64,000 nucleotides of DNA from Vicinamibacterales bacterium (GCA_036496585.1 DASXLB010000029.1:1535-65534); one strand, 5' to 3'; shown: positions 34,353-52,821, counted from the stretch's first letter. The notes: generated by a model from the letters alone, not told the origin. Numbers and translations: made by a program.

Positions 34353-34394
34353 ATCGGGTGATCGGGTGATCACCCGATTACCCGATCACCCGAT
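34353..34394. repeat. Perfect 15-bp inverted repeat built from ATCGGGTG / CACCCGAT octamers, between tsf and pyrH
   Basis: ATCGGGTGATCGGGT (34353-34367) is the exact reverse complement of ACCCGATCACCCGAT (34380-34394). The 12-nt loop contains a third CACCCGAT copy, which allows an alternative inner hairpin, CGGGT-GATC-ACCCG. The repeat is followed by TATAAT (34394-34399). Confidence 0.6.
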
Positions 34395-34407
34395 ATAATT
34401 GCGGGAT

Positions 34408-35124: not shown

Positions 35125-35130
35125 GGACAT

Positions 35131-35700: not shown

Positions 35701-35733
35701 CCGATCGGCGCCATCGCCCGTCGGCCTCCGCCA

Positions 35734-38488: not shown

Positions 38489-39603
38489 TTCAGTGTCCAG
38501 AGATACGCGACGACGTCGTGGATCTGGGTGTCGGTGATGTGCTCGAGCAGCGCAACGTGCGCCGCAAATGGATCGTCCTTGACGACCTCGACGCCGGGCG
38601 CGCGGCGGAAGGTGCGGGGCTGCCCGTCTTCGGCGCGGAGCGTGACGTTGAAGTCGTCCATCTGGACGAGCTCACCGGTCACTGCCTGGCCAGACGGCGG
38701 CGTCACCGTGACGCGCACGACCGGTGCGGGCCGGCTGCCGGCGGCGCGGCGCGCGCTCACGACCCCCGCGGGGAACAGGAAACGCTGCTGCAGATTGACC
38801 GGCTCCGTGAAACGGCCGCCGATGCCGGCAAGGTCGCCAGTCGCCGAGTGGCAGTGCGCGCAGCCGCCCTCGCCGCTGAAATACGTGGCGCCCGCCTTCG
38901 CGTCGCCGACGAGGATGTTCCCCGGCTTGAACATCGGCGCGCCGCGCAGGGTATCGTTCAGGCGCGAGCGCAGGAGATGCGCGAAGAGCAGCACCTGCGT
39001 GTCGGTCGGCTCGAGAATCTTCCCCGACGGCAGCTTCGGATGTTGCGACCGCAGGTAGGGGCCGATCTGGCTGCCGTAGCGATCGCTCAGCACGAGCAGC
39101 GAGCGCACCAGGTTCGGTCCTTTCGGCGTCCCGCGCGCATCCTTACCGTGACAGACCGCGCAGTCTTCCGTCCACAGCGGCTCGGCGCTCTCGACGGCCT
39201 TCGCATCGACGATCGGCTTGTCGTCGGCGCCCGGCGACCAGCCACCGGTACTGGGAGCCGTCAGCCCGTACTTCTCCGACAGGAAGTCGACGACGGCCGC
39301 GAAGTCGTCCGGTGTGCCGCGGGCGCCGCGGCCGACCATGTTCTCGATCGTCGCTTCCCACTGCGCGCGGGTACGGCGGATGGCGACGACGTTCTCGAAG
39401 GGGTGACACTGCGTGCACAGGCGGCGCGCGGTCGCCTCCCGCGCGTCCGACCCGCCGCCGGTCGCCGGGGGACGGGCTACCTGCCCCGCCGCGGCGGGCC
39501 GCTGAGGAGCCGCTCCACGCTGCGCGCCGGCCGACGCCGTCAGCGCCACCACCCACATGCCCGCCGCAACCGGGGTCAGCACTCGCCTCGGGAAAGAAAA
39601 CAT
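38485..39603 (-). CDS. Triheme c-type cytochrome, secreted
   Basis: It has a signal peptide and three CXXCH motifs: 'CTQCH', 'CAVCH' and 'CAHCH'. Its stop forms an ATGA overlap with the start of the downstream PQQ dehydrogenase gene. Confidence 0.8.
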   Translation of the reverse strand: MFSFPRRVLTPVAAGMWVVALTASAGAQRGAAPQRPAAAGQVARPPATGGGSDAREATARRLCTQCHPFENVVAIRRTRAQWEATIENMVGRGARGTPDDFAAVVDFLSEKYGLTAPSTGGWSPGADDKPIVDAKAVESAEPLWTEDCAVCHGKDARGTPKGPNLVRSLLVLSDRYGSQIGPYLRSQHPKLPSGKILEPTDTQVLLFAHLLRSRLNDTLRGAPMFKPGNILVGDAKAGATYFSGEGGCAHCHSATGDLAGIGGRFTEPVNLQQRFLFPAGVVSARRAAGSRPAPVVRVTVTPPSGQAVTGELVQMDDFNVTLRAEDGQPRTFRRAPGVEVVKDDPFAAHVALLEHITDTQIHDVVAYLWTLK

Positions 39604-40743: not shown

Positions 40744-40917
40744 TGGCGGGAGTGTGCCGCGCCGGCGGCGTGAACGTTCGACGCCGGGCATCCGGCTTCC
40801 GCTCAGTTCCGAATCGATCGCTTATGCGTAGTCGGCGCGCATTTCCACTGCGTCATGGCCCCACTGCCTGCGCACCACATCCGGATTGTTGACGACACTT
40901 CTGCGCCAAGTTCTTGA

Positions 40918-40946
40918 CAGCAGTCTTACTATGCGTAAGACTGCTG
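40918..40946. promoter_or_regulatory. Perfect 12-bp inverted repeat (candidate operator) overlapping a TTGACA box, directly upstream of the wHTH regulator gene
   Basis: CAGCAGTCTTAC (40918-40929), a 5-bp spacer, then GTAAGACTGCTG (40935-40946). TTGACA is at 40914-40919. The regulator's GTG start is at 40948. Confidence 0.5.
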
Positions 40947-40947
40947 C

Positions 40948-41262
40948 GTGCCAAGCCCGCGCGCCCGCGCGCCCCAGCTCTCGGCGAAGGAATCAGAGAT
41001 TCTCGATCGACTCGCTCACGGCGAGGAGTTATACGGCCTGCAACTCGTCGCCACCTCGAAAGGACGCCTCAAGCGGGGCACGGTCTACGTCACGCTTGGG
41101 CGCATGGAAGACAAGGGCTTCGTCACTTCGCGCGCCGAGGAGGCGCCCGTCGGCGCCGGCGGCCTGCCCCGCCGTCTCTACGCGGCGACGCCGTACGGCC
41201 TCCGCGTGCTGAAGGCGTGGACGGTGATGCTGCAGCACCTGTCGCCGGAGCATGCGCGATGA
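40948..41262 (+). CDS. Winged-helix transcriptional regulator (PadR/BlaI-like)
   Basis: 104 aa. The pattern 'SEILDRLAHGEELYGLQLV......KRGTVYVTLGRMEDKGFVTS.........RRLYAATPYGLRVL' fits the PadR-type wHTH pattern. The start codon is uncertain (GTG). Confidence 0.7.
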   Translation: MPSPRARAPQLSAKESEILDRLAHGEELYGLQLVATSKGRLKRGTVYVTLGRMEDKGFVTSRAEEAPVGAGGLPRRLYAATPYGLRVLKAWTVMLQHLSPEHAR

Positions 41263-42230
41263 CGGGCGACCATCCCGTCCGCCGGTTCCTGGCCCGCATC
41301 TGCCCTGACGAGACGATGGCGCGCATCGTCGATCCTGTACTGGCGGACATGCGGTTTGAAGGCGGCCCCGCGTGGCGCGGCTATCTCGTGCTGGCGCGCG
41401 CGCTCACTGTGCACACGATCGTCTCCATACCCGCTGCCCTCGTCCGCGTCTGTGCCGACGACGACGGGGCGATCCCGCGGGCGGCGGCGATTTCGCTGGG
41501 CGGAGCGCTCGTCACTGCACTCCCGTTCGTGCTGGTCCCATTGCTCGGAGCGCTGCGTAGCGGATTGCTTGGCCCGCTCTGGGGGCTGCGGCTGAAGACC
41601 GCGCACACGCCCGCGATGTTTTTGTTGCTCGTGCCCCAGGCGATGGCGCTGACGCTGCCAGCGGCGATCCTGCTGGCCTTCCCCGTCGCTCTCCGAGGAC
41701 TGACGGTGACCCGACGCATTCGGCGCCGCGCGATAGCACTCGTCTTCCTATTCGCAGCGCTGACCGGTTTCGTCATCGACCGCGTCGTACCGCGCACCAA
41801 CCAGGCGTTCCGGGTACTTGTGAGCGGCCGGCCGCTGCCGCCGGGCCCGAACGAGACGGCGTTTGCCGGACTTCGTCGGGAGCTCGCCACGCTGAAGACG
41901 TTTCACGGCGGCGAGACAATCCGGCGCGGCGTCGAATATACCCTGCACCAGCGCCTCGCCCTGAGCTGCGCGCCGCTGCCGCTCGGACTGCTCGCGCTCG
42001 CGTTGACCACGACGCGCGTCGGCCGCCGATGGCCGTGGGTCGCTGCATGTACGGGGCTCGCCGGCTATCTCTTCATCCTCTTCCCTCTTGATAGTGTCGC
42101 GCAGGTGTTATTGAGGCAAACGACTGCTCCGCCTGCGTTGCTCGCGTGGAGCCCGACGATTGTCATCGCACTGCTCGCGCTCGCGATCCAGCGACGCGCA
42201 TCGGTACAGTCGCTTGCCGCATGCAGTTAG
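41259..42230 (+). CDS. Polytopic membrane protein, LptF/LptG (YjgP/YjgQ)-like permease fold without the periplasmic beta-jellyroll insert
   Basis: ATGA overlap with the regulator stop. 323 aa, about 6 hydrophobic segments. 'MFLLLVPQAMALTLPAAILLAFPVAL', 'PGPNETAFAGLRRELATL' and 'HQRLALSCAPLPLGLLALAL' resemble conserved LptF/G segments. This is a by-eye similarity. Confidence 0.6.
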   Translation: MTGDHPVRRFLARICPDETMARIVDPVLADMRFEGGPAWRGYLVLARALTVHTIVSIPAALVRVCADDDGAIPRAAAISLGGALVTALPFVLVPLLGALRSGLLGPLWGLRLKTAHTPAMFLLLVPQAMALTLPAAILLAFPVALRGLTVTRRIRRRAIALVFLFAALTGFVIDRVVPRTNQAFRVLVSGRPLPPGPNETAFAGLRRELATLKTFHGGETIRRGVEYTLHQRLALSCAPLPLGLLALALTTTRVGRRWPWVAACTGLAGYLFILFPLDSVAQVLLRQTTAPPALLAWSPTIVIALLALAIQRRASVQSLAACS

Positions 42231-42355: not shown

Positions 42356-42399
42356 GCGCGAGGCAACGATCGATCGTTCACACGATGGAGCCGCTCACC

Positions 42400-42981
42400 A
42401 TGTCGAGAATCCTTCGACTCCTGTCCGTACTTCTCGTGACCGTCCCGGCGATGGTGTCCGCGCAGACCACTGGGGCCGGATACGCGGACGCGCTCAGTCC
42501 CTCGCTGGCGAGCGTCGCTCAGAAAATGCACGCGACGATCCGCCGTGATCTCGCGGAGGCCGCCGCGAGCATGCCGGCCAACGAGTATTCGTTCCGGCCG
42601 ACGCCCGACGTGCGCACGTTCGCGCAGGTCATCGGCCACGTCATCAACGCCGAGTGGTTCTTCTGCGCGCAGGCACGAGGAGCGTCTTCGCCCAACACGA
42701 TCAGCTTCGAGCAGGGGACCGACAAAGCGACGTTGGTGAAAGCCTTGGACGACGCGCTGGCGTACTGCGACCGCGCCTACGAGGAAACGACGGACGCAAA
42801 CTTCAACGATCCGGTCCAGATGCAGGCAGGCGTGGGAATGGGTCCGGCCCGAACCGTCCGCGGCGCGATTCTCATCTTCAACACCACGCACGACAACGAG
42901 CACTACGGGAATATCGTCGTCTACATGCGCTTGAAGGGACACGTGCCGCCGTCGACCGCCCGCACGCAATCGCCCAAGTGA
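42400..42981 (+). CDS. DinB-family four-helix-bundle protein with an N-terminal signal peptide
   Basis: ATG 42400 lies 9 nt after GGAG. The signal peptide is '[23 protein letters not shown]'. DinB-like His motifs: '[15 protein letters not shown]' and '[17 protein letters not shown]'. Confidence 0.8.
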
Positions 42982-43451: not shown

Positions 43452-46382
43452 ATGGTGCGCGGGTTGCAATCCTGGTGGGCTCCGTTGCACATGTCCGCGC
43501 CCGACACCGCCTCGTCCGAGTCTTCGTCCGGCTATGAAGACGGTCTCGGCCGGCGTGTGCTCGTGTTCGATCGCGAGAGCGGCGAGGTACGCGAACGGCT
43601 GCGCCTGCGGCCCGAACTGAGAGTCTTTGCCAGGCCGCTGCAGGAGCGGCTGCCGATCGTCGCCGGCCTCGAAGACGAGCGCTTCGCCCGGCCGCGCAGC
43701 ATCGAAATGGAGTCGGATGGCCGACTGGCGGTCGTCTCCGGCTACGGTCCGGGACGCCGGCTGTCGGACCTGCTCGACGCGGCGGCCGACCAGGGGATCG
43801 TCGCGGGCCTCGACGCCGGCCTCGGCCTGCTGCTCGAACTGCTGCCGGCGCTCTCCCGCCTCCACGACGCCGGCATCACCCATGGCGCGATCGCGCCTGG
43901 GCGAATCATGGTCACGGCGGCTGGGCAAATCGTCCTGCTCGACGCCATTTTCGCGGAAGCCCTCGAGCGGCTGCAGCTGACGCGGCGCCGGCTGTGGACC
44001 GAGCTGCGCCTCGCGTTTCCGGACGGGCCAGGCGCGCCGTCCTTCGACAAGGGCGCGGATCTCACGCAGGTGGCGCTCGCCGCGGCGACGCTGATTGTCG
44101 GGCGACTGCTGCGCGACGACGAGTGGCCAGACGGACTGGCGGCGCTGCAGCAGGAGATCGTCGAGATCGCCAGCATCCGGGCGTCGAAGGGTTTCGCCGA
44201 CGGCATCGACGCGTTCTTTTCAGCCGCGCTGCCGCTGCCCGCTCGAAAGACATCGCTGACGTCCGCCGACGAGGCGGCCATCGATCTGCGCAAGCTGCTG
44301 CGGAAGGAAGTCGGGATTGCGACGTGCCGCACGGCGCTGGTCGAATTCGTACAGCAGGTCGAGACCATCGACAAGGGGCGGCCCGCGGCGAATGAACCCG
44401 ACGCCGCACACGAGCCGGAACACCGCCGCGGGCGCGGTGCCGACCGCGCCGCTCGCGACGAAGCCGAGCGCAAAGCTCGCGAAGAAGCCGAACTCAAGGC
44501 CCGCGAAGAAGCCGAACGCCAAGCCCGCGAACAAGCGGAGCGCCAAGCCCGCGAAGAGGCCGAGCGCCAAGCCCGGGAAGCCGCCGAGCTCAAGGTCCGC
44601 GAAGAAGCGGAGCACAAAGCGCGCGAAGAAGCCGAACTCAAGGCCCGCGAAGAGGCCGAACTCAAGGCCCGCCAAGCAGCCGAGCTCAAGGCCCGCGAAG
44701 AGGCCGAGCGCAAGGCTCGCGAAGAAGCCGAACTCAAGGCCCGCCAAGCAGCCGAGCTCAAAGCCCGCGAAGAGGCCGAGCGCAAGGCCCGTGAAGAGGC
44801 CGAACTCAAGGCCCGCCAAGCAGCCGAGCTCAAAGCCCGCGAAGCAGCCGAACTCAAAGCCCGCCAAGCAGCCGAGCTCAAAGCTCGCGAAGAGGCCGAG
44901 CGCAAAGCCCGCCAAGCAGCCGAGCTCAAAGCCCGTGAAGAGGCCGAGCGCAAGGCCCGCGAAGAGGCCGAGCGCAAGGCTCGCAAAGAGGCCGAGCGCA
45001 AAACCCGCGAAGAGGCCGAGCGCAAAGCCCGCGAAGAGGCCGAGCGCAAAGCCCGCGAGGAAGCCGAACGCAAAGCCCGCGAGGAAGCCGAACGCAAAGC
45101 CCGCGAGGAAGCCGAACGCAAAGCCCGCGAAGAGGCCGAGCGCAAAGCCCGCGAAGAGGCCGAGCGCAAAACCCGTGAAGAGGCCGAGCGCAAGTCGCAG
45201 GCCGAGGCAGCGCTGGCCTCAGCCCTTCCGCCTGCCGACCAGGCAAAGGGGGCCTGGCTGGTAGCGCCCCACAACGCCACTGCGTTCAATCCGGCTGTCG
45301 AACCGACCGGGACGCCGGCGGCCGATCGCGCCTACCCGATCTACCAGCCGCCAGCCGAGACGCAGTCGTGGACGCCGGAGGCCGAGCCGCCTCCTGCGAT
45401 CGAAATCGGATCCGGCCCCACACCCAACGCGTTCACGCCGCCGCTGGCCGCCGCCGGCATTCGCCTGAAGCACGAGAAGGGCGCGGCGTCCGCCTTCGCC
45501 TCACGCGCGGACAGCCGGCACGAGCCGACCGAGGACATGACGGCGGCCGATGCCTACAACCCGTTCAGCATCCCGGAGGAGCCGCAAGTCATTCCGTGGA
45601 AGCTGATCGCGGCCGGCGTAGTCCTGATCGCCGCCACGTTCGCGTTGACACGCGGATATATGCCGTCCGACATCCCGGCGCCGTCGCTCGTCGCGCTCCA
45701 GAAGCCCCTCGAAATCATCAAGAAACCGCCGCCTCCCGCGGCCCACGCCGGCAGCGGCTCCGACACCCATCTCGCGATCTCCAGCGAGCCGGTCGGGGCC
45801 CGCATCCTGCTCGACGGCAAGTTCGTCGGTGCCACGCCGATGACCATCGACGAGATCTCGGCGGGACGCCACGTGGTGACGCTGCAGGGCAGCGGCGGCG
45901 CGATCAAGAGAACGGTGCGCATCGAACCCGGCAAGACGACGACGCTCGACGTGCCGGTGTTCTCGGGGTTCGCGCTGATCGTGGCGCCGTTCGTGGTCGA
46001 GGTCGCCGAAGGCGGCCGGTCGCTCGGCACCAGCGAAGAGCAGATCATGCTCGGCCCAGGCCATCACGATCTGCACCTCGAGAACAAGGACCTGAACTAC
46101 TCCGGCACCCACGGCGTCGACGTGGAGCCGGGAGAGACCACGCGGATTACCGTCGATCCGAAGGGGCGCGCCAACATCAACGCGATTCCGTGGGCCGAGG
46201 TCTACATCGACGGCGAGTCGGCCGGCCAGACGCCGCTCGCCAACGTGCCGATCCGCCTCGGCGTGCGCGAAATCGTCTTCAAGAACCCGCAGTTTCCTGA
46301 GCGCAAGGTCGTCGTCACGATCAAGTCTGGCGATGCACCGACCACCACCGTCGTCGACTTCACGAAGGACAAAGTACAATAG
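43452..46382 (+). CDS. Membrane protein: N-terminal Ser/Thr-kinase-like pseudokinase domain, 248-aa ER/K repeat helix, P/A-rich linker, one TM, three PEGA-like periplasmic domains
   Basis: The kinase-like segments are 'GYGPGRRLSDLL', 'LHDAGITHGAIAPGRIMV' and 'IVLLDAIFAEAL'. There are 31 octads of EAE[RL]KARE. The TM is 'VIPWKLIAAGVVLIAATFAL'. PEGA motifs include 'ISSEPVGARILLDGKFVGATPMTIDEISAGRHVVTL' and 'INAIPWAEVYIDGESAGQTPLANVPIRLGVREIVF'. An alternative start is at M14 (43491). Confidence 0.85.
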   Translation: MVRGLQSWWAPLHMSAPDTASSESSSGYEDGLGRRVLVFDRESGEVRERLRLRPELRVFARPLQERLPIVAGLEDERFARPRSIEMESDGRLAVVSGYGPGRRLSDLLDAAADQGIVAGLDAGLGLLLELLPALSRLHDAGITHGAIAPGRIMVTAAGQIVLLDAIFAEALERLQLTRRRLWTELRLAFPDGPGAPSFDKGADLTQVALAAATLIVGRLLRDDEWPDGLAALQQEIVEIASIRASKGFADGIDAFFSAALPLPARKTSLTSADEAAIDLRKLLRKEVGIATCRTALVEFVQQVETIDKGRPAANEPDAAHEPEHRRGRGADRAARDEAERKAREEAELKAREEAERQAREQAERQAREEAERQAREAAELKVREEAEHKAREEAELKAREEAELKARQAAELKAREEAERKAREEAELKARQAAELKAREEAERKAREEAELKARQAAELKAREAAELKARQAAELKAREEAERKARQAAELKAREEAERKAREEAERKARKEAERKTREEAERKAREEAERKAREEAERKAREEAERKAREEAERKAREEAERKAREEAERKTREEAERKSQAEAALASALPPADQAKGAWLVAPHNATAFNPAVEPTGTPAADRAYPIYQPPAETQSWTPEAEPPPAIEIGSGPTPNAFTPPLAAAGIRLKHEKGAASAFASRADSRHEPTEDMTAADAYNPFSIPEEPQVIPWKLIAAGVVLIAATFALTRGYMPSDIPAPSLVALQKPLEIIKKPPPPAAHAGSGSDTHLAISSEPVGARILLDGKFVGATPMTIDEISAGRHVVTLQGSGGAIKRTVRIEPGKTTTLDVPVFSGFALIVAPFVVEVAEGGRSLGTSEEQIMLGPGHHDLHLENKDLNYSGTHGVDVEPGETTRITVDPKGRANINAIPWAEVYIDGESAGQTPLANVPIRLGVREIVFKNPQFPERKVVVTIKSGDAPTTTVVDFTKDKVQ
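44460..45203 (+). repeat. 31 tandem copies of a 24-bp coding repeat (octad EAE[R/L]KARE)
   Basis: Units such as 'gaagccgagcgcaaagcccgcgaa' and 'gaagccgaactcaaggcccgccaa' run uninterrupted and in frame from 44460 to 45203. Confidence 0.95.
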
Positions 46383-46407
46383 ACGTTCCGGTTGGTTCCG
46401 CGAACGT

Positions 46408-47814
46408 GTGAGCCCCCTGCCGTTTCTGCTCCGTCGTCTCAAGGAACTGCGTCTCATCGAGGAGGCGCAGACCCAGGCGCTCGTCCGCGATGGCATCGTC
46501 ACGCTGCCCGATCTCGAGATGGCGATCGCCGAGGATCGTCCGGCAGCTGCATCGGCGTCGCTGCGGCGCATCGCCGTCCCCTTTCGCGAAGAGCTCCGCA
46601 CCTTTTCGCTGGGCCGCGCCCTCGACATTCTTGACCCGCTCCTGGCAGCCATCGCGGCGGCGTACCCCGATGTGCGCGGGCTCGAACCCACCGGCGCCGT
46701 GCGGCGGGCCGAGCCGCTGATCACCACGCTCACGGTCGTCGGGTGCACATCGCAGCCGTCGGACGCCGTCGATGCCGTCGCGGGGCTGCCGATCCTGAGC
46801 GGCGTGATTTATCGCGCCAGCCGCCGGCTGCTGGTGCTGTTCGAGAGGCACGAAGTCGACATTCGTTTCACCACGGCCGACGACTACGGAACGCTCCTCT
46901 TCACGACGACCGGTCCTCCCTCCCACGTCGCCGCCGTGCAGAAGCGCCGCGGGATGCGGCTGAGCGCCTCCGAAACCGAGGTCTACACGCACGCCGGCCT
47001 CGCCTACCTGCCGCCGCAGGTCCGCGACAGCGCCGACGCGATCGAGGCGGCGGCGACTCGGCAGATCCCGCGGCTCGTCCAGCGCGAGGACATCCGCGGC
47101 GATCTGCATATGCACACGAGCTACAGCGACGGACGCGACTCGCTGCGGCGAATGGTGATGGAGGCCCACGCGCTCGGCTATGAGTACATCGCGATCACCG
47201 ATCATTCCGAGCACGCCGGCGCCTCACGGACGGTGACTCCGTCCGACCTGGCGCGTCAGCTCGACGAAATCGACGCGCTCCGAGACGACGCGTACGGTCT
47301 GACGATCCTGCAGGGGCTCGAGGTCGACATCCTGCCCGATGGTGAACTCGACTGCCCCGACGCGGTGCTGGCGCGCCTCGACATCGTGCTGGCCTCGCTG
47401 CACGACGCCGCCGGCCACGGGCGCCAGCGGCTCACCGAGCGGTGTCTCGCGGCCATCCGGCATCCGCTCGTCTCGGTCATCACGCATCCCGGCAATCAGC
47501 TCGTCGGCCACCGCCCGCCCTACGACATGGACTACGACGCCATCTACGCGGCCGCCGCCGAGACCGGCACGGCGCTCGAGATCGACGGAGCGCCGTCCCA
47601 TCTCGACCTCGACGGGGCGCGGGCGCGCGAGGCGGTCCGCGCCGGAGTGACGCTGGTCGTCGACAGCGACTGTCACCGGGCCCACGCGCTCGACCGCCAG
47701 ATGTGGATGGGTGTCGGGACCGCCCGCCGGGGATGGGTCGAATCGAGGCATGTCCTGAATACGCGGCCGGTCGACGAGGTCGTCGCCTTCGTCGCGCGCA
47801 AGCGCGGCCGGTGA
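46408..47814 (+). CDS. PolX-family protein with a degenerate polymerase palm/thumb and an intact C-terminal PHP phosphoesterase domain
   Basis: GTG 46408 lies 25 nt after the upstream stop. The palm-like segment is 'GAVRRAEPLITTLTVVG...VDIRFTTADDYGTLLFTTTG'. PHP motifs: 'DLHMHTSYSDG', 'IAITDHS' and 'SLHD'. Confidence 0.75.
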   Translation: MSPLPFLLRRLKELRLIEEAQTQALVRDGIVTLPDLEMAIAEDRPAAASASLRRIAVPFREELRTFSLGRALDILDPLLAAIAAAYPDVRGLEPTGAVRRAEPLITTLTVVGCTSQPSDAVDAVAGLPILSGVIYRASRRLLVLFERHEVDIRFTTADDYGTLLFTTTGPPSHVAAVQKRRGMRLSASETEVYTHAGLAYLPPQVRDSADAIEAAATRQIPRLVQREDIRGDLHMHTSYSDGRDSLRRMVMEAHALGYEYIAITDHSEHAGASRTVTPSDLARQLDEIDALRDDAYGLTILQGLEVDILPDGELDCPDAVLARLDIVLASLHDAAGHGRQRLTERCLAAIRHPLVSVITHPGNQLVGHRPPYDMDYDAIYAAAAETGTALEIDGAPSHLDLDGARAREAVRAGVTLVVDSDCHRAHALDRQMWMGVGTARRGWVESRHVLNTRPVDEVVAFVARKRGR

Positions 47815-47923
47815 CGGGCCGGGCAATTCCGTGCAATAACCCCCCGTCCGCCGCCGCAGCCGAGAGCAAAGCGCCTGGCGCGCCATAGCCGAAGGGGAAG
47901 GCGGGTGCTACACTCGAACGTGC

Positions 47924-48571
47924 TTGCTGCTTCTTGCTTTGCTGACGTTTCTCTTAGCGGCCGGTCCGGCCCGGCAGGCGCGTCCCGACGCAACGGACAC
48001 CGCGCGCGCCCTGCAGCAGAAGTATGACCGTGTCCGCGACTTCACCGCGGATTTCACGCACACCTACGAAGGCGGCGTACTCAAGAAGAAGTCGGTCGAA
48101 CAGGGGACGGTGACGATCAAAAAGCCCGGTCGAATGCGGTGGGACTACACGTCGCCCGACAAGAAGCTGTTCGTCTCAGACGGCCGCAAGATCTATTCGT
48201 ACATTCCCGCCGACAAGCAGGTGATCGTCGGAGACATGCCGTCGGATGACACGGCGACGACCGCGGTGCTGTTCCTGGCGGGCAAGGGCAACCTGACTCG
48301 CGATTTCGACGTCACCTATGCGCCGTCGGATGCGTCCGACAGCTGGGCGCTCCGGCTCGACCCCCGGCGCCCGCAGCGCGACTACGATTGGCTGGTCGTC
48401 GTCGTCGATCGGCAGACGCTGCAGATCCGGTCGCTGACCGCAGCCGACAAGCAGGGCGGCCGGTCCACGTTCGCGTTCACCAACTACCACGAGAACACCG
48501 GCGTGGCCGACACGGCGTTCGCGTTCAAGATTCCGAAGGGTGTCGATGTCATCACGGCAGGCGACCGCTGA
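47924..48571 (+). CDS. lolA: Outer-membrane lipoprotein carrier protein LolA
   Basis: 215 aa with a signal-like N-terminus. Motifs: 'LQQKYDRVRDFTADFTHTY......QGTVTIKKPGRMRWDYTSPDKKLFVSDGRKIYSYIP'. The start codon (TTG) is uncertain. Confidence 0.75.
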   Translation: MLLLALLTFLLAAGPARQARPDATDTARALQQKYDRVRDFTADFTHTYEGGVLKKKSVEQGTVTIKKPGRMRWDYTSPDKKLFVSDGRKIYSYIPADKQVIVGDMPSDDTATTAVLFLAGKGNLTRDFDVTYAPSDASDSWALRLDPRRPQRDYDWLVVVVDRQTLQIRSLTAADKQGGRSTFAFTNYHENTGVADTAFAFKIPKGVDVITAGDR

Positions 48572-50456
48572 ACTGTGTCGGACGCTGATCCTGCTGCTGC
48601 CACTGGCGGCGGGATGTGCCTCAGCCAATAATCTGCACCTCGGGCGCCAGGCCGAGCAGACGCAGGACTACGACCGCGCGGTCGTCGAGTACACCAAGGC
48701 GGTGCGGGCGAGCCCGGACAACGGCGAAGCGCGCGCCTCGCTCGAACGGGTAAAGCAGCGGGCCGCCCAGGAGCACGCCAACCGCGCCCGACGGCTGGCT
48801 GGCCTCGAGCGCTGGGAGGAGGCGGTGGTGGAGTATCAGCTCGCCGCCGAGCTCAACCCGACCGATTCGCGCGTCGACGATGCGCTGCGCGACGCGCGGC
48901 AGAAGCTGCGCGCCAAAGTCAGCGTGACGCGCGGCGGCAAGACCGAACTCGAGAACCTGATCGATCGCACCCGTGACCTGCCGGCGCCCGGCCTCGACCT
49001 GCCGCAGGACGTCAAGCTCCCAGGATCGCTCGTGTTCGGCAACGGCGCGACGGCGCGCGCGGTGTTCCTGGCCGTCGGCCGCTTCGCCAACATGAGCGTC
49101 ATCTTCGACCCGACGTTCCGCGATCAGCCGCTCAGCATCGATCTGCGCAACTCGACGCTCTCCGACGCGCTCGGCTCGCTGACCACCAGCACGCACACCT
49201 TCTACCGCGTCACCGCGCAGCGCACCGTCACCATCATCCCCGACACGCCGGCCAAGCGGCGCGAGTACGAGGAGTCGGTGATCCGCACGATCTACCTGAG
49301 CAACGCCGACGTCAAGGAGGCGATCGATCTGCTGCGTGTCGTCGTCGACATCCGCCAGATCTCGCCGGTCAGCGGCACCAACTCGATTTCCATCAAGGAC
49401 ACGCCCGAGCGGGTCGCCGCGGCCGTCAAGCTGATCGAGGCGATCGACAAGGCGCGGCCGGAGGTCATCATCGACGTCGAGCTGCTCGAAGTCGATCGGA
49501 CGAAGCTCAAGGAGTACGGACTCCAGGTCGCGTCGCCAGGATCCGACGGCATCAGCGGATCCGCCGACATCAACCGCACGGGTTTCACTCTGGCGGACCT
49601 GCAGAACCTGACCGCCGCCGACGTGTTCCTGTCGGGCATTCCCGGCCTCTACTACCGCCTGCTCAAGAACGACACCAATACGCGCGCGCTGGCCAACCCC
49701 CAGCTCCGAGCCATCGAGGGAGTCGCGGCCACGGCGCGGTTCGGCGATCGCGTGCCGGTGCCGATCACGACGTTCGCGCCAATCGCCGCCGGCGGCGTCA
49801 ACACCCAGCCGATCGTGTCGTACGCCTACGAGAACATCGGCGTCAACATCGACATCACCCCGCGTATGCACCATGACGACGAGGTATCGCTGGCGCTGAA
49901 GGTGTCGGTCTCGAACATCTCCGGCACCGGCTACGCGGGACTCCCGACGTTCGGCAACCGCGAGATCTCGACGACGATCCGGCTGAAGGACGGAGAAACC
50001 AACATGCTGGCGGGGCTGATCCGGGACGACGAGCGAACGGTGCTCGCCGGCGTGCCCGGGTTGTCGGACCTGCCGCTCATCGGGCATCTCTTCGCCAACA
50101 ACCACAAGGAAGCGCAGCAGACCGACATCATCCTGACGCTGACCCCTCACATCGTCCGGGTCCTGGACCTCTCGGAGACGGATCTGCGCCCGTTCCGCCT
50201 CGGGCACGAGTCGCAGATGACGGCGGGCGACGCGGTCGGCGGCGGCGCGCCGCGCGACGACCTGGAGGTGCAGTCCCCGGCAATCCCCGGCCCGCGGACA
50301 CCTCTACCGGCCGCGGCACCGCCCCCTGCGCCGCCCGAGACGGCTCCGGCCCAGCCACCGTTCCCACAGCCACTGCAGGGGCCGCTCCCCGGTATTCCGC
50401 AACCGGTGTCGACCCCCCCCGCGCCCAAAAAGCCGGGAGGCGGAAGCTCGTATTAA
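48546..50456 (+). CDS. Lipobox-bearing secretin with an N-terminal TPR region, N0/N1-like domains, a secretin core and a proline-rich C-terminal tail
   Basis: ATG 48546 follows AAGGG; GTG 48540 is an alternative. The signal and lipobox are 'LILLLPLAAGCAS'. A TPR-like stretch is 'DYDRAVVEYTKAVRASPDNGEA...WEEAVVEYQLAAELNPTD'. The secretin core is 'NPQLRAIEGVAATARFGDRVPV...AGVPGLSDLPLIGHLF....EAQQTDIILTLTPHIV'. The gene overlaps the lolA 3' end. Confidence 0.85.
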   Translation: MSSRQATAELCRTLILLLPLAAGCASANNLHLGRQAEQTQDYDRAVVEYTKAVRASPDNGEARASLERVKQRAAQEHANRARRLAGLERWEEAVVEYQLAAELNPTDSRVDDALRDARQKLRAKVSVTRGGKTELENLIDRTRDLPAPGLDLPQDVKLPGSLVFGNGATARAVFLAVGRFANMSVIFDPTFRDQPLSIDLRNSTLSDALGSLTTSTHTFYRVTAQRTVTIIPDTPAKRREYEESVIRTIYLSNADVKEAIDLLRVVVDIRQISPVSGTNSISIKDTPERVAAAVKLIEAIDKARPEVIIDVELLEVDRTKLKEYGLQVASPGSDGISGSADINRTGFTLADLQNLTAADVFLSGIPGLYYRLLKNDTNTRALANPQLRAIEGVAATARFGDRVPVPITTFAPIAAGGVNTQPIVSYAYENIGVNIDITPRMHHDDEVSLALKVSVSNISGTGYAGLPTFGNREISTTIRLKDGETNMLAGLIRDDERTVLAGVPGLSDLPLIGHLFANNHKEAQQTDIILTLTPHIVRVLDLSETDLRPFRLGHESQMTAGDAVGGGAPRDDLEVQSPAIPGPRTPLPAAAPPPAPPETAPAQPPFPQPLQGPLPGIPQPVSTPPAPKKPGGGSSY

Positions 50457-50540
50457 TCGGCAGCGGGCCGGGCCAGTTCGCGCTCAGCATTCCAACGGTC
50501 GATCTCGCCTGCGCGAGGCCAGTTGCTGACTGGCTGACTG

Positions 50541-51800
50541 CTAACCGCCCACTCTCTCCACTTGCGCCCCGAGGCTCCGCAGTCGCTCAATCAACGAGGC
50601 GTATCCCCGTTCAACCGTCTCGAGCGGCGTGATCTGGCTCTCTCCTTCGGCGGCGAGCGCCGCGGCGATGAGCGCCATTCCCGATCGCAGGTCGCGGCTG
50701 TCGAGCGCGCGCCCGCGGAGCTTCGCCGGCCCGCTCACGATGATGCGGTGGGGATCGCACAGGAAAAGGTCGGCGCGCATCGCGCTCATCTGCTCGAGCG
50801 CGAACAGGCGCAGTTCGTACAGCCAGTCGTGCACGAGCGTTCGGCCCTCCGCCTGGGTCGCCAGCACCGTCACCAGGCTGACGAGGTCGCTCGGAAACCC
50901 CGGCCACACGCCGGTCGTGATGCGGCGAACCGCGACGAGCGACGACGGCGCGACCCGCAGGGTGTCGTCTCGATACGAGCAGTCGAGGCCCATCCGCAGC
51001 AGCGGCGCCGAGATGACTTCGAGATCCTGCGAGCGCGCCCCGGTGACCTCGATGTGGCCGTTGGTGATCGCGGCGACGACGCCCCAGCTTCCCGCTTCGA
51101 TATAGTCGCCCCACAGCCGCTGTGAGGCGCCGCGCAGGCGCGCCGGCGGCTCGACGCGGATGGTTGACGTCCCTCCCCCTTCGATCCCGGCACCCATCGC
51201 CGCGAGGAACCGGCACAACTCGACGACGTGCGGCTCCATGGCGGCATGCCGGATCTCTGAGGGGCCTTTCGCGGCGACCGCGGCCAGGAGCGCCGTCTCT
51301 GTGCCGGTCACCGACGCTTCGTCGAGATAAAAAGACGCTCCGGTCAGGCCATCGGGGCACTCGATCGCGTGGCCCGGCTCATCGAGCGGGCGGGCGCCCA
51401 GCGCGATCAGCGCGGCGAGGTGGGTGGAGATCGTCCGGCGCGTCGGAAAATCGCCGCCCGGAGGGGCGAGCCGCGCCGCCCCGCGCCGCGCGAGTAGCGG
51501 CCCGAGGAGGAGCACCGAGCCGCGCAGCCGCCCGACCAGCGTAGGGTCGGGCCGGTCGCCGGTCACCTGCGCGCAAGTGATTCGCAGCGTGTTGGTGCCG
51601 CGTCCCTCGACCTGCGCGCCGAGCGACGCCATGAGGTCGAGCAGGACATCGACATCACGAATGCGCGGCACGTTCGAGAGCTCGCACGTCTGCTCGGTCA
51701 GCATGCAGGCGGCGATCAGCGGCAGCGCCGAGTTCTTGTTGCCTTCGACCGCGACACGTCCCGACAACGCCCGCCCGCCGATGACTTTCAGACTAGCCAT
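50541..51800 (-). CDS. murA: UDP-N-acetylglucosamine 1-carboxyvinyltransferase
   Basis: 419 aa. Motif 'VEGNKNSALPLIAACML', plus overall MurA-like length and pattern. Confidence 0.93.
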   Translation of the reverse strand: MASLKVIGGRALSGRVAVEGNKNSALPLIAACMLTEQTCELSNVPRIRDVDVLLDLMASLGAQVEGRGTNTLRITCAQVTGDRPDPTLVGRLRGSVLLLGPLLARRGAARLAPPGGDFPTRRTISTHLAALIALGARPLDEPGHAIECPDGLTGASFYLDEASVTGTETALLAAVAAKGPSEIRHAAMEPHVVELCRFLAAMGAGIEGGGTSTIRVEPPARLRGASQRLWGDYIEAGSWGVVAAITNGHIEVTGARSQDLEVISAPLLRMGLDCSYRDDTLRVAPSSLVAVRRITTGVWPGFPSDLVSLVTVLATQAEGRTLVHDWLYELRLFALEQMSAMRADLFLCDPHRIIVSGPAKLRGRALDSRDLRSGMALIAAALAAEGESQITPLETVERGYASLIERLRSLGAQVERVGG

Positions 51801-51858
51801 TCACCACCCTCCGCCCCAGCGCCAAGCTCAACTCCTCGACCTCCACGCTCCACCCTCC

Positions 51859-52797
51859 TCAGAATTCTCCCAGATAAACGATCTCGTCTCTGAGTTCGAC
51901 ACCGAATCTCGCGCGAACGCCGTCGCGACAGCGCTCGATGAGCCGCCGGATCGCGGCGGCGGTCGCGTTCCCTTCGTTGACGATGAAATTGGCATGCGTC
52001 TGCGAGACCTGCGCCCCATCGTGGCGAGCCCCCTTCAGTCCCGCCCGATCGACGAGCGCTCCGGCTGACGGCGGCACGCCGTCCGGCACGCAGTCCACGG
52101 CGGGATCCGGGTTCTGGAAAATGCACCCTGCGCTCGCCGCCTCGAGCGGCTGCGTTCGCTTGCGATAGGCAAGCGATTCCCGCGCCACCAGCCGTAGCGC
52201 GGCGGGATCGCCAGCGCCCACGCGGAAATCGGCGGATAGCACGACCTCGCGGGTCCGCTGCAGCCGGCTGCGGTCGTAGCCGAATTCCATCGCCGCAGTC
52301 GACAGCCGAATCACCTGGCCCTCGGCCGCGAGCAGCTCGACGCCGTCGACAAGATCGCCGATGAGGCGCCCCCTGAAGTGTGCGTTGCCGTAGATCGCGC
52401 CCCCGACCGTGCCCGGCGTGCCGGCCCAGGCTTCCAGTCCGGCCACGCCCCGGTTGATCGTCCATCGCACGAGCCCGTTGATCGTCAGCCCGGCATCCGC
52501 GCGGACCAGCCCGTCACCGATCGTGTTGGCTTCCCCGCCGTGCACACGAATGACGAGGCCGCGGACCCCGGCATCGGCGATGAGCACGTTCGAGCCACCG
52601 CCGAGGATCGTGAACGGCGCGCCGGCGGCTCTCGCCGCCTCGATTCCAGCACGCACCTCACGCGCATCGCGCGCCAGCAGCAGCCAGTCGGCTGGACCGC
52701 CGACTTTGAACGTGGAGAACGGCGCCAGCGGTGCGTTCTGCCGCAGGCGTTCGGCCGGCACCCCGGCGATCGCCGGCGGGCGGCCATCGAAGCTCAC
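51859..52797 (-). CDS. murB: UDP-N-acetylenolpyruvoylglucosamine reductase
   Basis: 312 aa. Motifs 'FKVGGPADWL', 'ILGGGSNVLI', 'GTPGTVGGAIYGNA' and 'SAGCIFQNP'. Confidence 0.9.
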   Translation of the reverse strand: MSFDGRPPAIAGVPAERLRQNAPLAPFSTFKVGGPADWLLLARDAREVRAGIEAARAAGAPFTILGGGSNVLIADAGVRGLVIRVHGGEANTIGDGLVRADAGLTINGLVRWTINRGVAGLEAWAGTPGTVGGAIYGNAHFRGRLIGDLVDGVELLAAEGQVIRLSTAAMEFGYDRSRLQRTREVVLSADFRVGAGDPAALRLVARESLAYRKRTQPLEAASAGCIFQNPDPAVDCVPDGVPPSAGALVDRAGLKGARHDGAQVSQTHANFIVNEGNATAAAIRRLIERCRDGVRARFGVELRDEIVYLGEF

Positions 52798-52821
52798 GGC
52801 GTCAATCGTGTCACAGGCACG

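What the first reader, a model, noticed from the sequence alone, without database searches (positions are those of the whole stretch)
43452..46382. Bitopic pseudokinase / 248-residue ER/K helix / triple-PEGA envelope protein
**Kinase-like domain.** The N-terminal ~300 aa read as a Hanks-type Ser/Thr kinase fold: 'GYGPGRRLSDLL', 'LHDAGITHGAIAPGRIMV...IVLLDAIFAEAL'. However, every catalytic signature I can place is substituted.
- There is no GxGxxG loop.
- The VAIK-Lys position reads 'RLRLRPEL'.
- HRDLKPxN has become 'HGAIAPGR', so the catalytic Asp is lost.
- DFG has become 'DAI'.

**Spacer and envelope part.** The domain is followed by 31 uninterrupted EAE[R/L]KARE octads. This composition is characteristic of ER/K single alpha-helices. 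At about 0.15 nm rise per residue, 248 aa would span roughly 37 nm. Next come a P/A-rich linker, one TM helix and three PEGA-like domains, which should be periplasmic.

**Interpretation.** A dead kinase held on a very long rigid spacer from an envelope-anchored PEGA module is not an architecture I recognise as characterised. It suggests a scaffold or molecular ruler rather than a phosphotransfer enzyme.
Basis: partly seen in the sequence, partly recalled or inferred. Interest (0 to 1): 0.72.

Follow-up and report, generated by a model that had tools for sequence, protein, structure and literature searches.

The report
Membrane pseudokinase on long charged helix
This soil-bacterium gene encodes a membrane-anchored, catalytically dead protein-kinase look-alike, joined by a roughly 37-nm charged single helix to three small envelope-facing domains; it belongs to a large, unstudied family that standard kinase profiles do not detect.

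Summary
ORF 43452-46382 (976 aa; the real start is probably M14 at 43491) has five parts:
- an N-terminal domain that Pfam Pkinase misses. A family profile matches Stk1/PknB, PAK and PknA (E 1.9e-8). An AlphaFold model built on the family alignment (pLDDT 90.7) matches PknA/PknB/Stk1 by Foldseek (E 2e-10).
- exactly 31 EAE[R/L]KAR[E/Q] octads (248 aa), with 134 attractive against 2 repulsive i,i+4 charge pairs and no heptad signal;
- a Pro/Ala-rich linker;
- one TM helix;
- three PEGA-like domains, two by Pfam and the middle one by profile-profile comparison.

None of 224 relatives has the beta3 Lys, the HRD Asp or the catalytic Asn. They share other invariants instead: DGLGxR, Glu48, Leu50, Arg66, His-Gly, Arg151, Asp/Glu164.

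The family is large (791 clusters at E<=1e-30). Named members are Vicinamibacterales/Acidobacteriota, annotated only as 'PEGA domain-containing' or 'hypothetical'.

The 'molecular ruler' idea is not supported. Across 107 full-length members the linker runs from 43 to 1375 aa and is mostly acidic/Pro-rich. Only 8 members carry an ER/K stretch.

Best reading: a non-catalytic bitopic scaffold or receptor-like pseudokinase, in which the single alpha-helix is a clade-specific, selected stiffening of the tether. I rate it a new variant of a known kind. The function is inferred, not shown.

The parts
43452..46382 (+). Whole ORF, 976 aa including the stop codon. The probable true start is ATG at 43491 (M14).
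   Evidence: ORF list. Homologues begin at the residue aligned with M14. The orthologue in L001 is 986 aa and the one in L003 is 1099 aa, both with the same layout.
43491..44387 (+). Cytoplasmic pseudokinase domain (ORF residues 14-312). It has the protein-kinase fold. The Gly-loop position holds D30-G31-L32-G33-R34-R35. The beta3 Lys is replaced by L50, with invariant E48 two residues before it. The alphaC Glu is replaced by R66. HRD reads H144-G145-A146. The catalytic Asn is replaced by R151. DFG reads D164-A165-I166.
   Evidence: No Pfam Pkinase hit. Family profile against PDB gives E 1.9e-8 to Stk1/PknB. AF2 pLDDT 90.7. Foldseek top hits are PknA, Stk1, PknB, PAK1 and PknI. Residues were mapped by HMM alignment to PknA/PknB and surveyed in 224 relatives.
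44457..45200 (+). 31 tandem octads EAE[R/L]KAR[E/Q] (residues 336-583, 248 aa). Predicted ER/K-type single alpha-helix, about 37 nm if fully helical.
   Evidence: TRF period 24 with 30.8 copies. Octad register. 134 attractive vs 2 repulsive i,i+4 charge pairs, against a shuffle mean of 0.5 (sd 10). No power at period 3.5, and 5% large hydrophobic residues. 21 distinct DNA units of 31, with EEAERKAR encoded in at least 5 ways.
45201..45596 (+). Pro/Ala-rich, probably disordered juxtamembrane linker (residues 584-715). It carries short motifs shared with part of the family: WLVAPHNATAF at 602, IRLK at 670 and IPWK at 714.
   Evidence: Sequence. Motif counts in 96 long relatives: 19, 24 and 44 respectively. 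The same motifs are visible in P0082, P0085, P0095 and P0099.
45597..45650 (+). Single transmembrane helix WKLIAAGVVLIAATFALT (residues 716-733).
   Evidence: Hydropathy window and sequence. K+R bias on the N-terminal flank across 47 relatives is 2.79 vs 1.43. No N-terminal signal peptide is seen.
45768..45953 (+). PEGA domain 1 (residues 773-834), predicted periplasmic.
   Evidence: Pfam PF08308, E 6.6e-14, 52 bits against a cutoff of 20.8.
45960..46160 (+). Divergent PEGA-like domain 2 (residues 837-903). Its hydrophobic first strand (VPVFSGFALIVAPFVVEVA) scores as a weak false TM segment.
   Evidence: No Pfam hit even at E<=10. hhalign of family sub-alignments gives 95.7% to domain 1 (E 8.6e-9) and 90.5% to domain 3. 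Hydropathy 1.92.
46161..46367 (+). PEGA domain 3 (residues 904-972; Pfam match at 916-965).
   Evidence: Pfam PF08308, E 7.6e-6, 26.2 bits against a cutoff of 20.8. hhalign gives 96.4% to domain 1.

Best explanation
The gene encodes a bitopic (N-in, C-out) inner-membrane protein of a Vicinamibacterales-type acidobacterium. It belongs to a large, previously undescribed family of receptor-like bacterial pseudokinases.

**Shown**
- The cytoplasmic N-terminal domain has the Hanks kinase fold. Throughout the family it lacks the ATP-anchoring Lys, the catalytic Asp and the catalytic Asn.
- The former active-site positions carry a different, strongly conserved residue set: DGLGxR at the Gly-loop position, Glu48/Leu50 in beta3, Arg66 in alphaC, His-Gly, Arg151 and Asp/Glu164.
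- The C-terminal part, after one TM helix, consists of three PEGA-type beta-sandwich domains.
- The two ends are joined by a long cytoplasmic tether that varies greatly across the family.
- In this clade about 250-460 residues of that tether are an ER/K repeat with a near-perfect i,i+4 salt-bridge pattern.

**Inferred**
- The pseudokinase does not phosphorylate. It acts as a conserved binding or docking module for a partner protein or a small anionic ligand.
- The PEGA domains hold the protein to, or sense, an envelope component in the periplasm.
- The tether lets the docking module search a large volume under the membrane.
- In this clade the tether has been stiffened into a semi-flexible single alpha-helix of about 37 nm. 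Such a helix would keep the pseudokinase away from its own membrane anchor and lower its effective concentration there. This resembles the single-alpha-helix 'dog leash' that links Aurora B to its anchor in INCENP.
- The helix is selected at the protein level but is not a family-wide ruler.
For: **Kinase fold**
- Family profile against PDB gives E 1.9e-8.
- AF2 pLDDT 90.7, pTM 0.89.
- Foldseek top hits are PknA, Stk1 and PknB, E 2e-10.
- NCBIfam returns only far-sub-threshold hits, and all are kinase-fold families.

**Catalytic loss across the family**
- 0 of 224 members has Lys, Asp or Asn at the catalytic positions.
- Replacement residues are strongly conserved: Leu 205/217, Glu48 206/215, Arg66 186/218, Gly145 221/222, Arg151 216/222.

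**Family size**
- 791 clusters (50% identity) at E<=1e-30.

**Architecture conserved**
- L001 is 986 aa and L003 is 1099 aa.
- P0080, P0082, P0085, P0095, P0099 and P0177 show the same layout.

**Single alpha-helix signature**.

**Selection on the repeat**
- 21 of 31 DNA units are distinct in the window, and 26 of 27 in L001. None is shared between the two, yet the peptide is the same.

**Tether variability**.

**PEGA domains**.

**Topology**
- Single TM helix and K+R flank bias.

**Envelope context**
- LolA, secretin, MurA and MurB lie downstream, conserved down to 49% identity.
- Short-clade relatives sit next to a Peptidase_M23 gene.

**Precedents for non-catalytic membrane pseudokinases**
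- MviN and EssB/YukC (PMC12599244).

**Precedents for a single alpha-helix as leash or spring**
- PMC4571873, PMC4183817 and PMC5378345 (abstracts).
Against: - No experiment exists for any member, and no binding partner is identified.
- Synteny is only shown within one order and may simply reflect relatedness.
- The model coordinates could not be inspected, so the proposed salt-bridge network in the cleft (Glu48-Arg66 and others) is untested.
- Several conserved arginines in the cleft (R35, R66, R151) plus the retained DFG Asp could still bind a nucleotide.
- Helicity and monomeric state of the repeat are inferred from sequence statistics only.
- Topology was not run through a dedicated predictor.
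Confidence: 0.55

Rival explanations
1. The N-terminal domain is not inert. It is an atypical enzyme or a nucleotide or phospho-ligand sensor that uses a re-wired pocket (Arg35, Arg66, Arg151, Asp164, His144). Precedents are SelO and SidJ, or the Arg-lined pockets proposed for DLHK pseudokinases.
For: The former active-site positions are among the most conserved in the family rather than decayed, and three or four are arginines. The metal-binding DFG Asp is kept as D or E in 220 of 221 members. The review describes DYD and DLHK families predicted to bind ATP despite lacking canonical residues, and SidJ as a kinase-fold protein with a different (polyglutamylase) activity.
Against: The position of the adenine-contacting Ala of VAIK holds an invariant Glu, and the Lys position holds Leu. 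This would be expected to fill or close the adenine pocket. The conserved Glu48/Arg66 pair fits an internal charge-swapped salt bridge better than ligand contacts.
Confidence: 0.15
2. The ER/K array is a true molecular ruler. Its length sets a functionally required distance of about 37 nm between the membrane and the pseudokinase.
For: The repeat peptide is conserved under synonymous divergence. The nearest orthologue, L001 (81% identity in the N-terminal pseudokinase domain), has a similar array of 27 octads plus further ER-rich sequence, with an ER/K span of 279 aa against 263 aa here.
Against: ER/K spans differ among close relatives: 263, 279, 311-317, 380-396, 393, 417 and 427-445 aa, by two slightly different window criteria. 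The repeat unit itself differs (octad EAERKARE here, ERLEAERRER-type in L003 and P0045). 99 of 107 full-length family members have no ER/K stretch of 48 aa or more, and their linkers run from 43 to 1375 aa. From my own knowledge, the ER/K persistence length is about 15 nm, well below 37 nm.
Confidence: 0.12
3. The repeat is a coiled-coil dimerisation (or higher-order) domain that brings two pseudokinase domains together.
For: The central third of the array carries Leu every 8 or 16 residues (12 Leu in all) and an Ala stripe with period 4. Bacterial kinase and pseudokinase domains often dimerise (MviN back-to-back dimer).
Against: There is no power at period 3.5 or 7. The best heptad register has only 8% large hydrophobic residues and about 60% charged residues at a/d positions. 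The last 104 residues contain about 1% large hydrophobic residues.
Confidence: 0.05
4. It is a TolA-like envelope-spanning protein, with the long helix crossing the periplasm.
For: Weak NCBIfam hits to TolA models lie over the repeat (E 1.2e-9, 37.9 bits). The neighbourhood is envelope-related.
Against: Scores are below the curated cutoffs (37.9 vs 59.45 bits; 28.9 vs 213 bits) and confined to the low-complexity repeat. The helix lies N-terminal to the only TM segment, on the same side as a kinase-fold domain with no signal peptide, so it is cytoplasmic. There is no TolA domain III.
Confidence: 0.03

Closest known systems
MviN (Rv3910) pseudokinase domain of Mycobacterium tuberculosis, ActPs3 family
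   Same: It is an intracellular Hanks-fold pseudokinase domain fused to a membrane protein, with an extracytoplasmic carbohydrate-binding-type domain. It is non-catalytic and works as a docking scaffold in cell-wall control (PMC12599244).
   Different: MviN is polytopic (a lipid II flippase core), actinobacterial, and fills its ATP pocket with aromatic residues. It has no long helical tether and no PEGA. Here there is one TM helix, a polar/charged set of cleft residues, and an acidobacterial host. Sequence membership in ActPs3 was not tested.
EssB/YukC, the transmembrane pseudokinase of the type VIIb secretion system
   Same: It is a single-pass membrane protein with an N-terminal cytoplasmic pseudokinase domain degraded in all catalytic motifs. 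It acts as an assembly scaffold (PMC12599244).
   Different: It is from Firmicutes, has a short linker and a different extracellular domain, and sits in a dedicated T7SSb locus. No T7SS genes were seen here, although a secretin gene lies about 2 kb downstream.
GLW pseudokinase family (Proteobacteria)
   Same: The beta3 Lys is replaced by Leu (or Trp), and a TM segment lies C-terminal to the pseudokinase domain.
   Different: GLW is defined by Gly-Leu-Trp replacing HRD. Here HRD is replaced by His-Gly-[Ala/Thr/Leu]. The phylum also differs.
Active bacterial Hanks-type receptor kinases (PknB, PknA, Stk1)
   Same: These are the best fold and profile matches. The overall layout is the same: cytoplasmic kinase domain, linker, one TM helix, then repeated small extracytoplasmic domains (PASTA in those kinases, PEGA here).
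   Different: All catalytic residues except the DFG Asp are replaced, in every family member. The juxtamembrane linker is 5-20 times longer.
ER/K single alpha-helix tethers, e.g. the INCENP SAH domain linking Aurora B to its anchor, and the myosin VI/X SAH domains
   Same: They share the composition and the i,i+4 Glu-Arg/Lys pattern. They also share the role as a long semi-flexible connector between an anchor and a (pseudo)kinase or motor (PMC4571873, PMC4183817, PMC5378345).
   Different: Those are eukaryotic and non-repetitive at the DNA level. This one is a near-perfect 24-bp tandem array in a bacterium and lies between a pseudokinase and a TM helix. At 248 aa it is, to my knowledge, longer than the experimentally studied natural examples (about 200 aa or fewer).

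Membership tests
Protein kinase-like (Hanks/ePK) fold | Bilobal kinase fold, significant by structure comparison | tested here: met
   AF2 pLDDT 90.7. Foldseek top 50 hits are all Ser/Thr kinases, E 2e-10 to 1e-8, TM 0.5-0.7.
Protein kinase-like (Hanks/ePK) fold | Sequence homology to kinases at profile level | tested here: met
   Family profile against PDB gives Stk1/PknB at E 1.9e-8 over positions 54-275, plus PAK1 and PknA. Single-sequence search is only marginal (E 8e-4).
Protein kinase-like (Hanks/ePK) fold | Passes Pfam Pkinase (PF00069) or an NCBIfam kinase model threshold | tested here: not met
   No Pfam hit at E<=10. The best NCBIfam hit is 26 bits against a cutoff of 460.
Catalytically competent Ser/Thr kinase | beta3 Lys (VAIK) paired with alphaC Glu | tested here: not met
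   The Lys position holds Leu in 205 of 217 members and never Lys. The alphaC Glu position holds Arg in 186 of 218.
Catalytically competent Ser/Thr kinase | HRD catalytic Asp and catalytic-loop Asn | tested here: not met
   The loop reads H-G-[A/T/L]-x-[A/G/S/D]-P-x-R, with 0 Asp in 222 members and Arg in 216 of 222 at the Asn position.
Catalytically competent Ser/Thr kinase | DFG metal-binding Asp | tested here: met
   Asp in 176 and Glu in 44 of 221 members. The Phe and Gly of the motif are lost.
Catalytically competent Ser/Thr kinase | GxGxxG glycine-rich loop | tested here: not met
   It is replaced by an invariant D-G-L-G-x-R, of which only two Gly align with loop glycines of PknA.
Pseudokinase (kinase fold lacking at least one of Lys / HRD-Asp / DFG-Asp) | Kinase fold present, with at least one catalytic-triad residue absent family-wide | tested here: met
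Pseudokinase | Absence of ATP binding and of phosphotransfer, shown experimentally | not testable with these tools
   Needs thermal shift or ITC and kinase assays.
GLW bacterial pseudokinase family | Gly-Leu-Trp motif in place of HRD | tested here: not met
   The motif here is H-G-[A/T/L]. The definition is taken from PMC12599244.
ActPs3 (MviN-type) pseudokinase family | Hallmark activation-loop deletion and aromatic residues filling the ATP pocket | not tested
   No ActPs3 profile was available. The cleft residues here are charged or aliphatic rather than aromatic.
PEGA domain (PF08308) | Passes the Pfam gathering score | tested here: met
   Domains 1 and 3 score 52 and 26.2 bits against a cutoff of 20.8.
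PEGA domain (PF08308) | The third (middle) copy is also PEGA | tested here: inconclusive
   No Pfam hit. hhalign gives 95.7% and 90.5% probability to the flanking PEGA domains.
ER/K single alpha-helix (SAH) | High E/R/K content with a dense i,i+4 opposite-charge network | tested here: met
   63% E+R+K. 134 attractive against 2 repulsive i,i+4 pairs, 13 sd above shuffles.
ER/K single alpha-helix (SAH) | No heptad hydrophobic seam | tested here: met
   Power at period 3.5 is at most 0.07. Occupancy of a/d positions by large hydrophobic residues is at most 8%.
ER/K single alpha-helix (SAH) | Monomeric, stably helical in solution | not testable with these tools
   Needs CD and AUC. Dedicated predictors (Waggawagga, SCAN4CSAH) are not available here.
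TolA | Passes the TIGR02794 or NF007065 cutoff, with an N-terminal TM helix followed by a periplasmic helix and domain III | tested here: not met
   Scores are 37.9 vs 59.45 bits and 28.9 vs 213 bits, over the repeat only. The domain order is the opposite.

The most novel reading that the evidence does not exclude
The conserved, arginine-rich remodelled cleft (DGLGxR, Glu48, Arg66, Arg151, Asp164) is a binding site for a nucleotide second messenger or a phosphorylated partner. The family would then be a new class of transmembrane signalling pseudokinases that couple the state of the envelope (PEGA side) to a cytoplasmic ligand-dependent switch. In this clade the 37-nm single alpha-helix would work as a mechanical element (a constant-force spring or stand-off) that gates the coupling. 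That would be a bacterial counterpart of the eukaryotic SAH-tethered kinase arrangement.
Probability: 0.15. Interest if true: 0.8.

Novelty: new variant of a known kind. Interest (0 to 1): 0.55.

Why it matters
**A family that current surveys may miss.** Bacterial pseudokinases are a young field. A 2025 review counts seven families, almost none with a known function. This is a further large family (about 800 clusters at 50% identity with E<=1e-30). Where sources name the organism it comes from Acidobacteriota, mostly Vicinamibacterales, a group recovered here mainly from metagenome assemblies. The Pfam and NCBIfam kinase profiles used here do not detect it, so surveys that rely on such profiles may miss it.

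**A testable cleft.** Its cleft is not decayed but re-fixed on a different residue set. This gives a clear mutational handle and a concrete question: is it a closed salt-bridged pocket or a new ligand site?

**A natural comparison of tethers.** In this clade a disordered tether has been replaced by a very long ER/K helix (248 to about 440 residues). The helix is maintained by protein-level selection. This offers a natural case of 'disordered versus stiff tether' in the same protein family. It is also a source of very long natural ER/K spacers for protein engineering.

Tried and rejected
1. Pfam and NCBIfam on the full protein and on the N-terminal domain alone gave no usable kinase call. The Cornifin hit and the TolA hits are compositional matches to the repeat, and the TolA scores are below the curated cutoffs.
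2. Single-sequence AF2 of the N-terminal domain was useless (pLDDT 39.8). It cost one of the two jobs, so the repeat and the PEGA region could not be modelled.
3. The search for related loci with the 30-sequence alignment failed for lack of a conserved 7-mer. A 7-sequence alignment worked. Most of its 26 loci (L006-L026) were unrelated kinases or pseudokinases sharing the LHDAGxxHG pattern, and these were unsuitable as canonical references.
I used it only for residue mapping, which agrees with the HMM alignment to PknA. That alignment reproduces the coordinates of the PDB hit.
5. A search with the triple-PEGA module, meant to find active kinases carrying the same ectodomain, returned only fragments of this same family. 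A link to PEGA-bearing active kinases therefore rests on my memory only and is not claimed.
6. Literature searches for 'pseudokinase' plus 'PEGA' and for 'PEGA domain' found nothing relevant to this architecture.
7. The promoter/terminator scan around the gene was uninformative.
8. The cluster look-up for taxonomy of distant members gave no organism names.
9. The PADLOC scan was not completed because of a frame error in my coordinates. A defence-system role was therefore not tested beyond the sub-threshold MAD6 kinase hit.
10. Assembly artefact or pseudogene was rejected. The reading frame is intact, the repeat units are diverged, and independent long-contig orthologues have the same layout.

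Full report
**1. The observation**

The window is about 68% G+C. It contains an intact ORF at 43452-46382 on the + strand, 976 aa. Homologues consistently begin at the residue aligned with Met14 ('MSAPD...'). The real start is therefore probably ATG 43491 (sequence).

Tandem Repeats Finder reports a 24-bp unit with 30.8 copies at 44454-45193. 21 of the 31 DNA units are different, and the commonest peptide, EEAERKAR, is encoded by at least five DNA versions. The array is thus neither an assembly collapse nor a very recent slippage product.

**2. The N-terminal domain is a kinase fold, but only sensitive methods see it**

- Pfam finds PEGA and a compositional 'Cornifin' hit, but no Pkinase, even on the isolated domain at E<=10.
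- NCBIfam gives only far-sub-threshold hits. All of them are to kinase-fold families.
- phmmer against PDB sequences gives marginal hits (best E 8e-4) that all align at the catalytic-loop region.
- I collected 79 homologues and built a 30-sequence alignment of the domain (A2). Its profile hits S. aureus Stk1/PknB at E 1.9e-8 over positions 54-275, then PAK1-6, PknA and PknG.
- AlphaFold2 on the single sequence failed (pLDDT 39.8). With A2 it gave pLDDT 90.7 and pTM 0.89, with the expected order of beta1-5, alphaC and alphaD-I.
- Foldseek against the PDB returned only Ser/Thr kinases. PknA, Stk1, PknB, MST2, PAK1 and PknI came first (E 2e-10 to 1e-8, TM 0.5-0.7).

The refutation criterion 'no statistically significant kinase-fold hit' is therefore not met.

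**3. Catalytic residues**

An HMM alignment of the family to PknA reproduces the coordinates of the PDB hit. Together with the alignment to PknB, it gives the following mapping in ORF numbering.

| Canonical kinase element | Residues in this ORF |
|---|---|
| Gly-rich loop | D30-G31-L32-G33-R34-R35 |
| VAIK Ala | E48 |
| VAIK Lys | L50 |
| alphaC Glu | R66 |
| HRD | H144-G145-A146 |
| Lys of HRDxK | A148 |
| Catalytic Asn | R151 |
| DFG | D164-A165-I166 |

I then aligned 224 family sequences to the profile.
- None has Lys, Asp or Asn at the three catalytic positions.
- The replacement residues are among the best conserved in the domain: D30 191/191, G33 191/191, R35 192/192, E48 206/215, L50 205/217, R66 186/218, H144 198/222, G145 221/222, R151 216/222, D/E164 220/221.
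- The structural landmarks W182, D203 (alphaF) and G217-R218 are also conserved.

This is an old, fixed pseudokinase, not a decaying one. The pairing of an invariant Glu in beta3 with an invariant Arg at the alphaC Glu position suggests a charge-swapped version of the Lys-Glu bridge. I could not check this because model coordinates are not exposed.

**4. The repeat**

- Composition is E 78, A 65, R 48, K 29, L 12 and Q 10 of 248 residues, with net charge -2.
- Opposite-charge pairs at i,i+4 number 134 against 2 like-charge pairs. Shuffled sequences give a net mean of 0.5 (sd 10). No other spacing shows any excess.
- Hydrophobic periodicity has no power at 3.5, 3.6 or 7 residues.
- In the best heptad register only 8% of a/d positions hold a large hydrophobic residue, and about 60% are charged.
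- The last 104 residues have about 1% large hydrophobic residues.

This is the textbook sequence signature of an ER/K single alpha-helix and is incompatible with a canonical coiled coil. At 0.15 nm per residue the helix would be 37 nm long. From my own knowledge, the persistence length measured for ER/K helices is about 15 nm. It should therefore be pictured as a semi-flexible rod or spring. [quoted passage not shown]

**5. The rest of the protein**

- Residues 584-715 are Pro/Ala-rich. They carry short motifs shared with part of the family: WLVAPHNATAF, IRLK and IPWK immediately before the membrane.
- One hydrophobic segment, WKLIAAGVVLIAATFALT (716-733), is the TM helix.
- A second weak hydropathy peak at 831-849 is the first strand of the middle PEGA-like domain, conserved as 'PVFSGW...'.
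- Pfam scores PEGA for 773-834 (E 6.6e-14) and 916-965 (E 7.6e-6), but gives nothing for 837-903.
- Profile-profile comparison of family sub-alignments links the middle segment to both neighbours (95.7% and 90.5%). 'Triple PEGA' is therefore acceptable, with the middle copy divergent.
- There is no signal peptide, and 700 residues including a folded kinase domain precede the only TM helix. K+R residues are enriched on the N-terminal flank across 47 relatives (2.79 vs 1.43). An N-in topology with PEGA in the periplasm is the only reasonable arrangement, though I could not run a dedicated predictor.

**6. The family**

- A profile search of 1.84 billion cluster representatives finds 791 clusters at E<=1e-30 and 1217 at E<=1e-10.
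- Where named, members come from Vicinamibacterales or Acidobacteriota MAGs. They are annotated 'hypothetical protein' or 'PEGA domain-containing protein', and occasionally 'serine/threonine protein kinase' by JGI.
- Typical full-length members are 800-1100 aa, with the same order: pseudokinase, long linker, TM helix, three PEGA.
- A short clade (about 450 aa) has a 45-60 aa linker and one PEGA.
- A few giants (1700-2050 aa) have linkers of 1100-1375 aa.
- In 107 full-length sequences the linker spans 43-1375 aa (median 340). In the 99 members without a long ER/K stretch its mean composition is 13% D+E, 8% K+R, 20% Pro and 19% Ala, which is low-complexity and probably disordered.
- Only 8 have an ER/K stretch of 48 aa or more. 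The seven with 100 aa or more are the window protein (263 aa by my window criterion), L001 (279), L003 (417), P0081 (393), P0083 (317), P0105 (445) and P0114 (396).
- The repeat unit differs between close relatives. It is an octad here and in L001, and an ERLEAERRER-type unit in L003, P0008 and P0045.
- L001 (81% identical in the kinase domain, on a 408-kb contig) has 27 octads with 26 distinct DNA units. None is shared with the window.

The ER/K helix is thus a clade-specific, protein-level-selected version of a tether that is long and floppy elsewhere. That argues against a family-wide ruler function. It is compatible with a stand-off or spring role in this clade.

**7. Context**

Downstream on the same strand lie a PolX-like PHP protein, LolA (above the NCBIfam cutoff) and a TPR-secretin. 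MurA and MurB follow on the opposite strand. The block from the target gene through PHP, LolA and the secretin is kept in relatives down to 49% identity (L027, L030), with MurA and MurB following in L027. L001 and L003 keep the downstream PHP gene. Short-clade relatives lie between RmuC and a Peptidase_M23 gene. One distant member follows a HAMP-SpoIIE (PP2C) gene. These hints point to the cell envelope and to Ser/Thr phospho-signalling. They are weak, because the sampling is within one lineage.

**8. Mechanism**

*Shown:* the fold, the loss of catalytic residues, the conserved alternative cleft residues, the SAH-type sequence pattern, a single TM helix, the PEGA-type ectodomain, and the variable tether.

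*Inferred:* the protein is a non-catalytic, receptor-like scaffold. The PEGA domains engage an envelope component. The pseudokinase is a docking or switch module for a cytoplasmic partner or ligand. The tether defines the volume that module explores. Stiffening the tether into an ER/K helix keeps the module tens of nanometres from its own anchor. An analogy is INCENP, whose SAH 'dog leash' links Aurora B to its anchor (PMC4571873).

*Precedents:* non-catalytic membrane pseudokinases in bacteria include MviN (recruits FhaA after phosphorylation by PknB) and EssB/YukC (T7SSb assembly) (PMC12599244).

*Main rival:* the arginine-rich cleft binds a nucleotide or catalyses other chemistry, as predicted for DLHK/DYD or shown for SidJ/SelO. 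I give that about 15%.

**9. Comparison and novelty**

The seven bacterial pseudokinase families reviewed in 2025 are ActPs1-3, GLW, CP1, DYD and DLHK. None is described from Acidobacteria, none carries PEGA, and none has this motif set. GLW shares the Leu at the beta3 Lys position and a C-terminal TM helix, but it is defined by GLW in place of HRD, which is not the case here.

I therefore rate this as a new variant of a known kind (transmembrane bacterial pseudokinases). It is a new family with a new architecture, and within it a clade carries an unusually long natural ER/K helix. Function is unknown and all evidence is computational, so interest is moderate at 0.55.

Noticed in passing
window 46333-52797: An envelope-biogenesis block lies downstream of the target: a PolX-like PHP protein (46333-47814, whose annotated start overlaps the target's last 50 bp), LolA (47924-48571, above the NCBIfam cutoff), a TPR-secretin related to GspD/PilQ (48540-50456), and MurA (50541-51800, - strand) and MurB (51859-52797, - strand). 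The order from the target through PHP, LolA and the secretin is conserved in relatives down to 49% identity (L027, L030), with MurA and MurB following in L027.
   Followed up: partly
L028 8001-10568; L029 8001-10470: Short-clade relatives (about 340-460 aa, one PEGA or none, no repeat) sit between an RmuC gene and a Peptidase_M23 gene on the same strand. This may link them to peptidoglycan remodelling.
   Followed up: no
L031 4785-9984: A distant full-length family member (P0177, 956 aa) directly follows a HAMP-SpoIIE (PP2C-type phosphatase) gene on the same strand. This is a single instance.
   Followed up: no
P0169, P0170, P0171, P0197, P0207, P0209 (family members, not in the window): Giant family members of 1700-2050 aa whose cytoplasmic linker is roughly 790-1375 aa of acidic, Ala/Pro-rich low-complexity sequence between the pseudokinase and the TM helix.
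   Followed up: partly
L027 8001-11043; many P00xx fragments: Gene calls for this family in MAGs are very often truncated at contig ends inside the repeat or split in two by frameshifts in the linker (for example 405 aa + 595 aa in L027). Databases therefore mostly hold separate 'hypothetical' N-terminal halves and 'PEGA domain-containing' C-terminal halves.
   Followed up: partly
window 43742-45289 (-), 44220-44915 (-), 44317-45264 (+), 44926-45246 (-): Long alternative-frame and antisense ORFs (up to 515 aa, Ser/Ala/Arg- or Pro/Lys-rich) run across the repeat. They are by-products of the periodic high-GC sequence, not genes. The repeat also causes the AT-skew spike (0.39) in the 44001-46000 composition bin.
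   Followed up: partly
window 37055-39058 (+), 52378-55371 (+), 34378-36558 (-): Three large ORFs (667, 997 and 726 aa) have no Pfam family at E<=1e-3. I did not check whether they are real genes.
   Followed up: no
window 40914-42230 (+) and 42385-42981 (+): Upstream neighbours are an ORF with a weak LptF/LptG permease match in its C-terminal part only, whose N-terminal 100 aa look non-coding (so the start is probably wrong), and a DinB-superfamily protein that appears to have a signal-peptide-like N-terminus.
   Followed up: no
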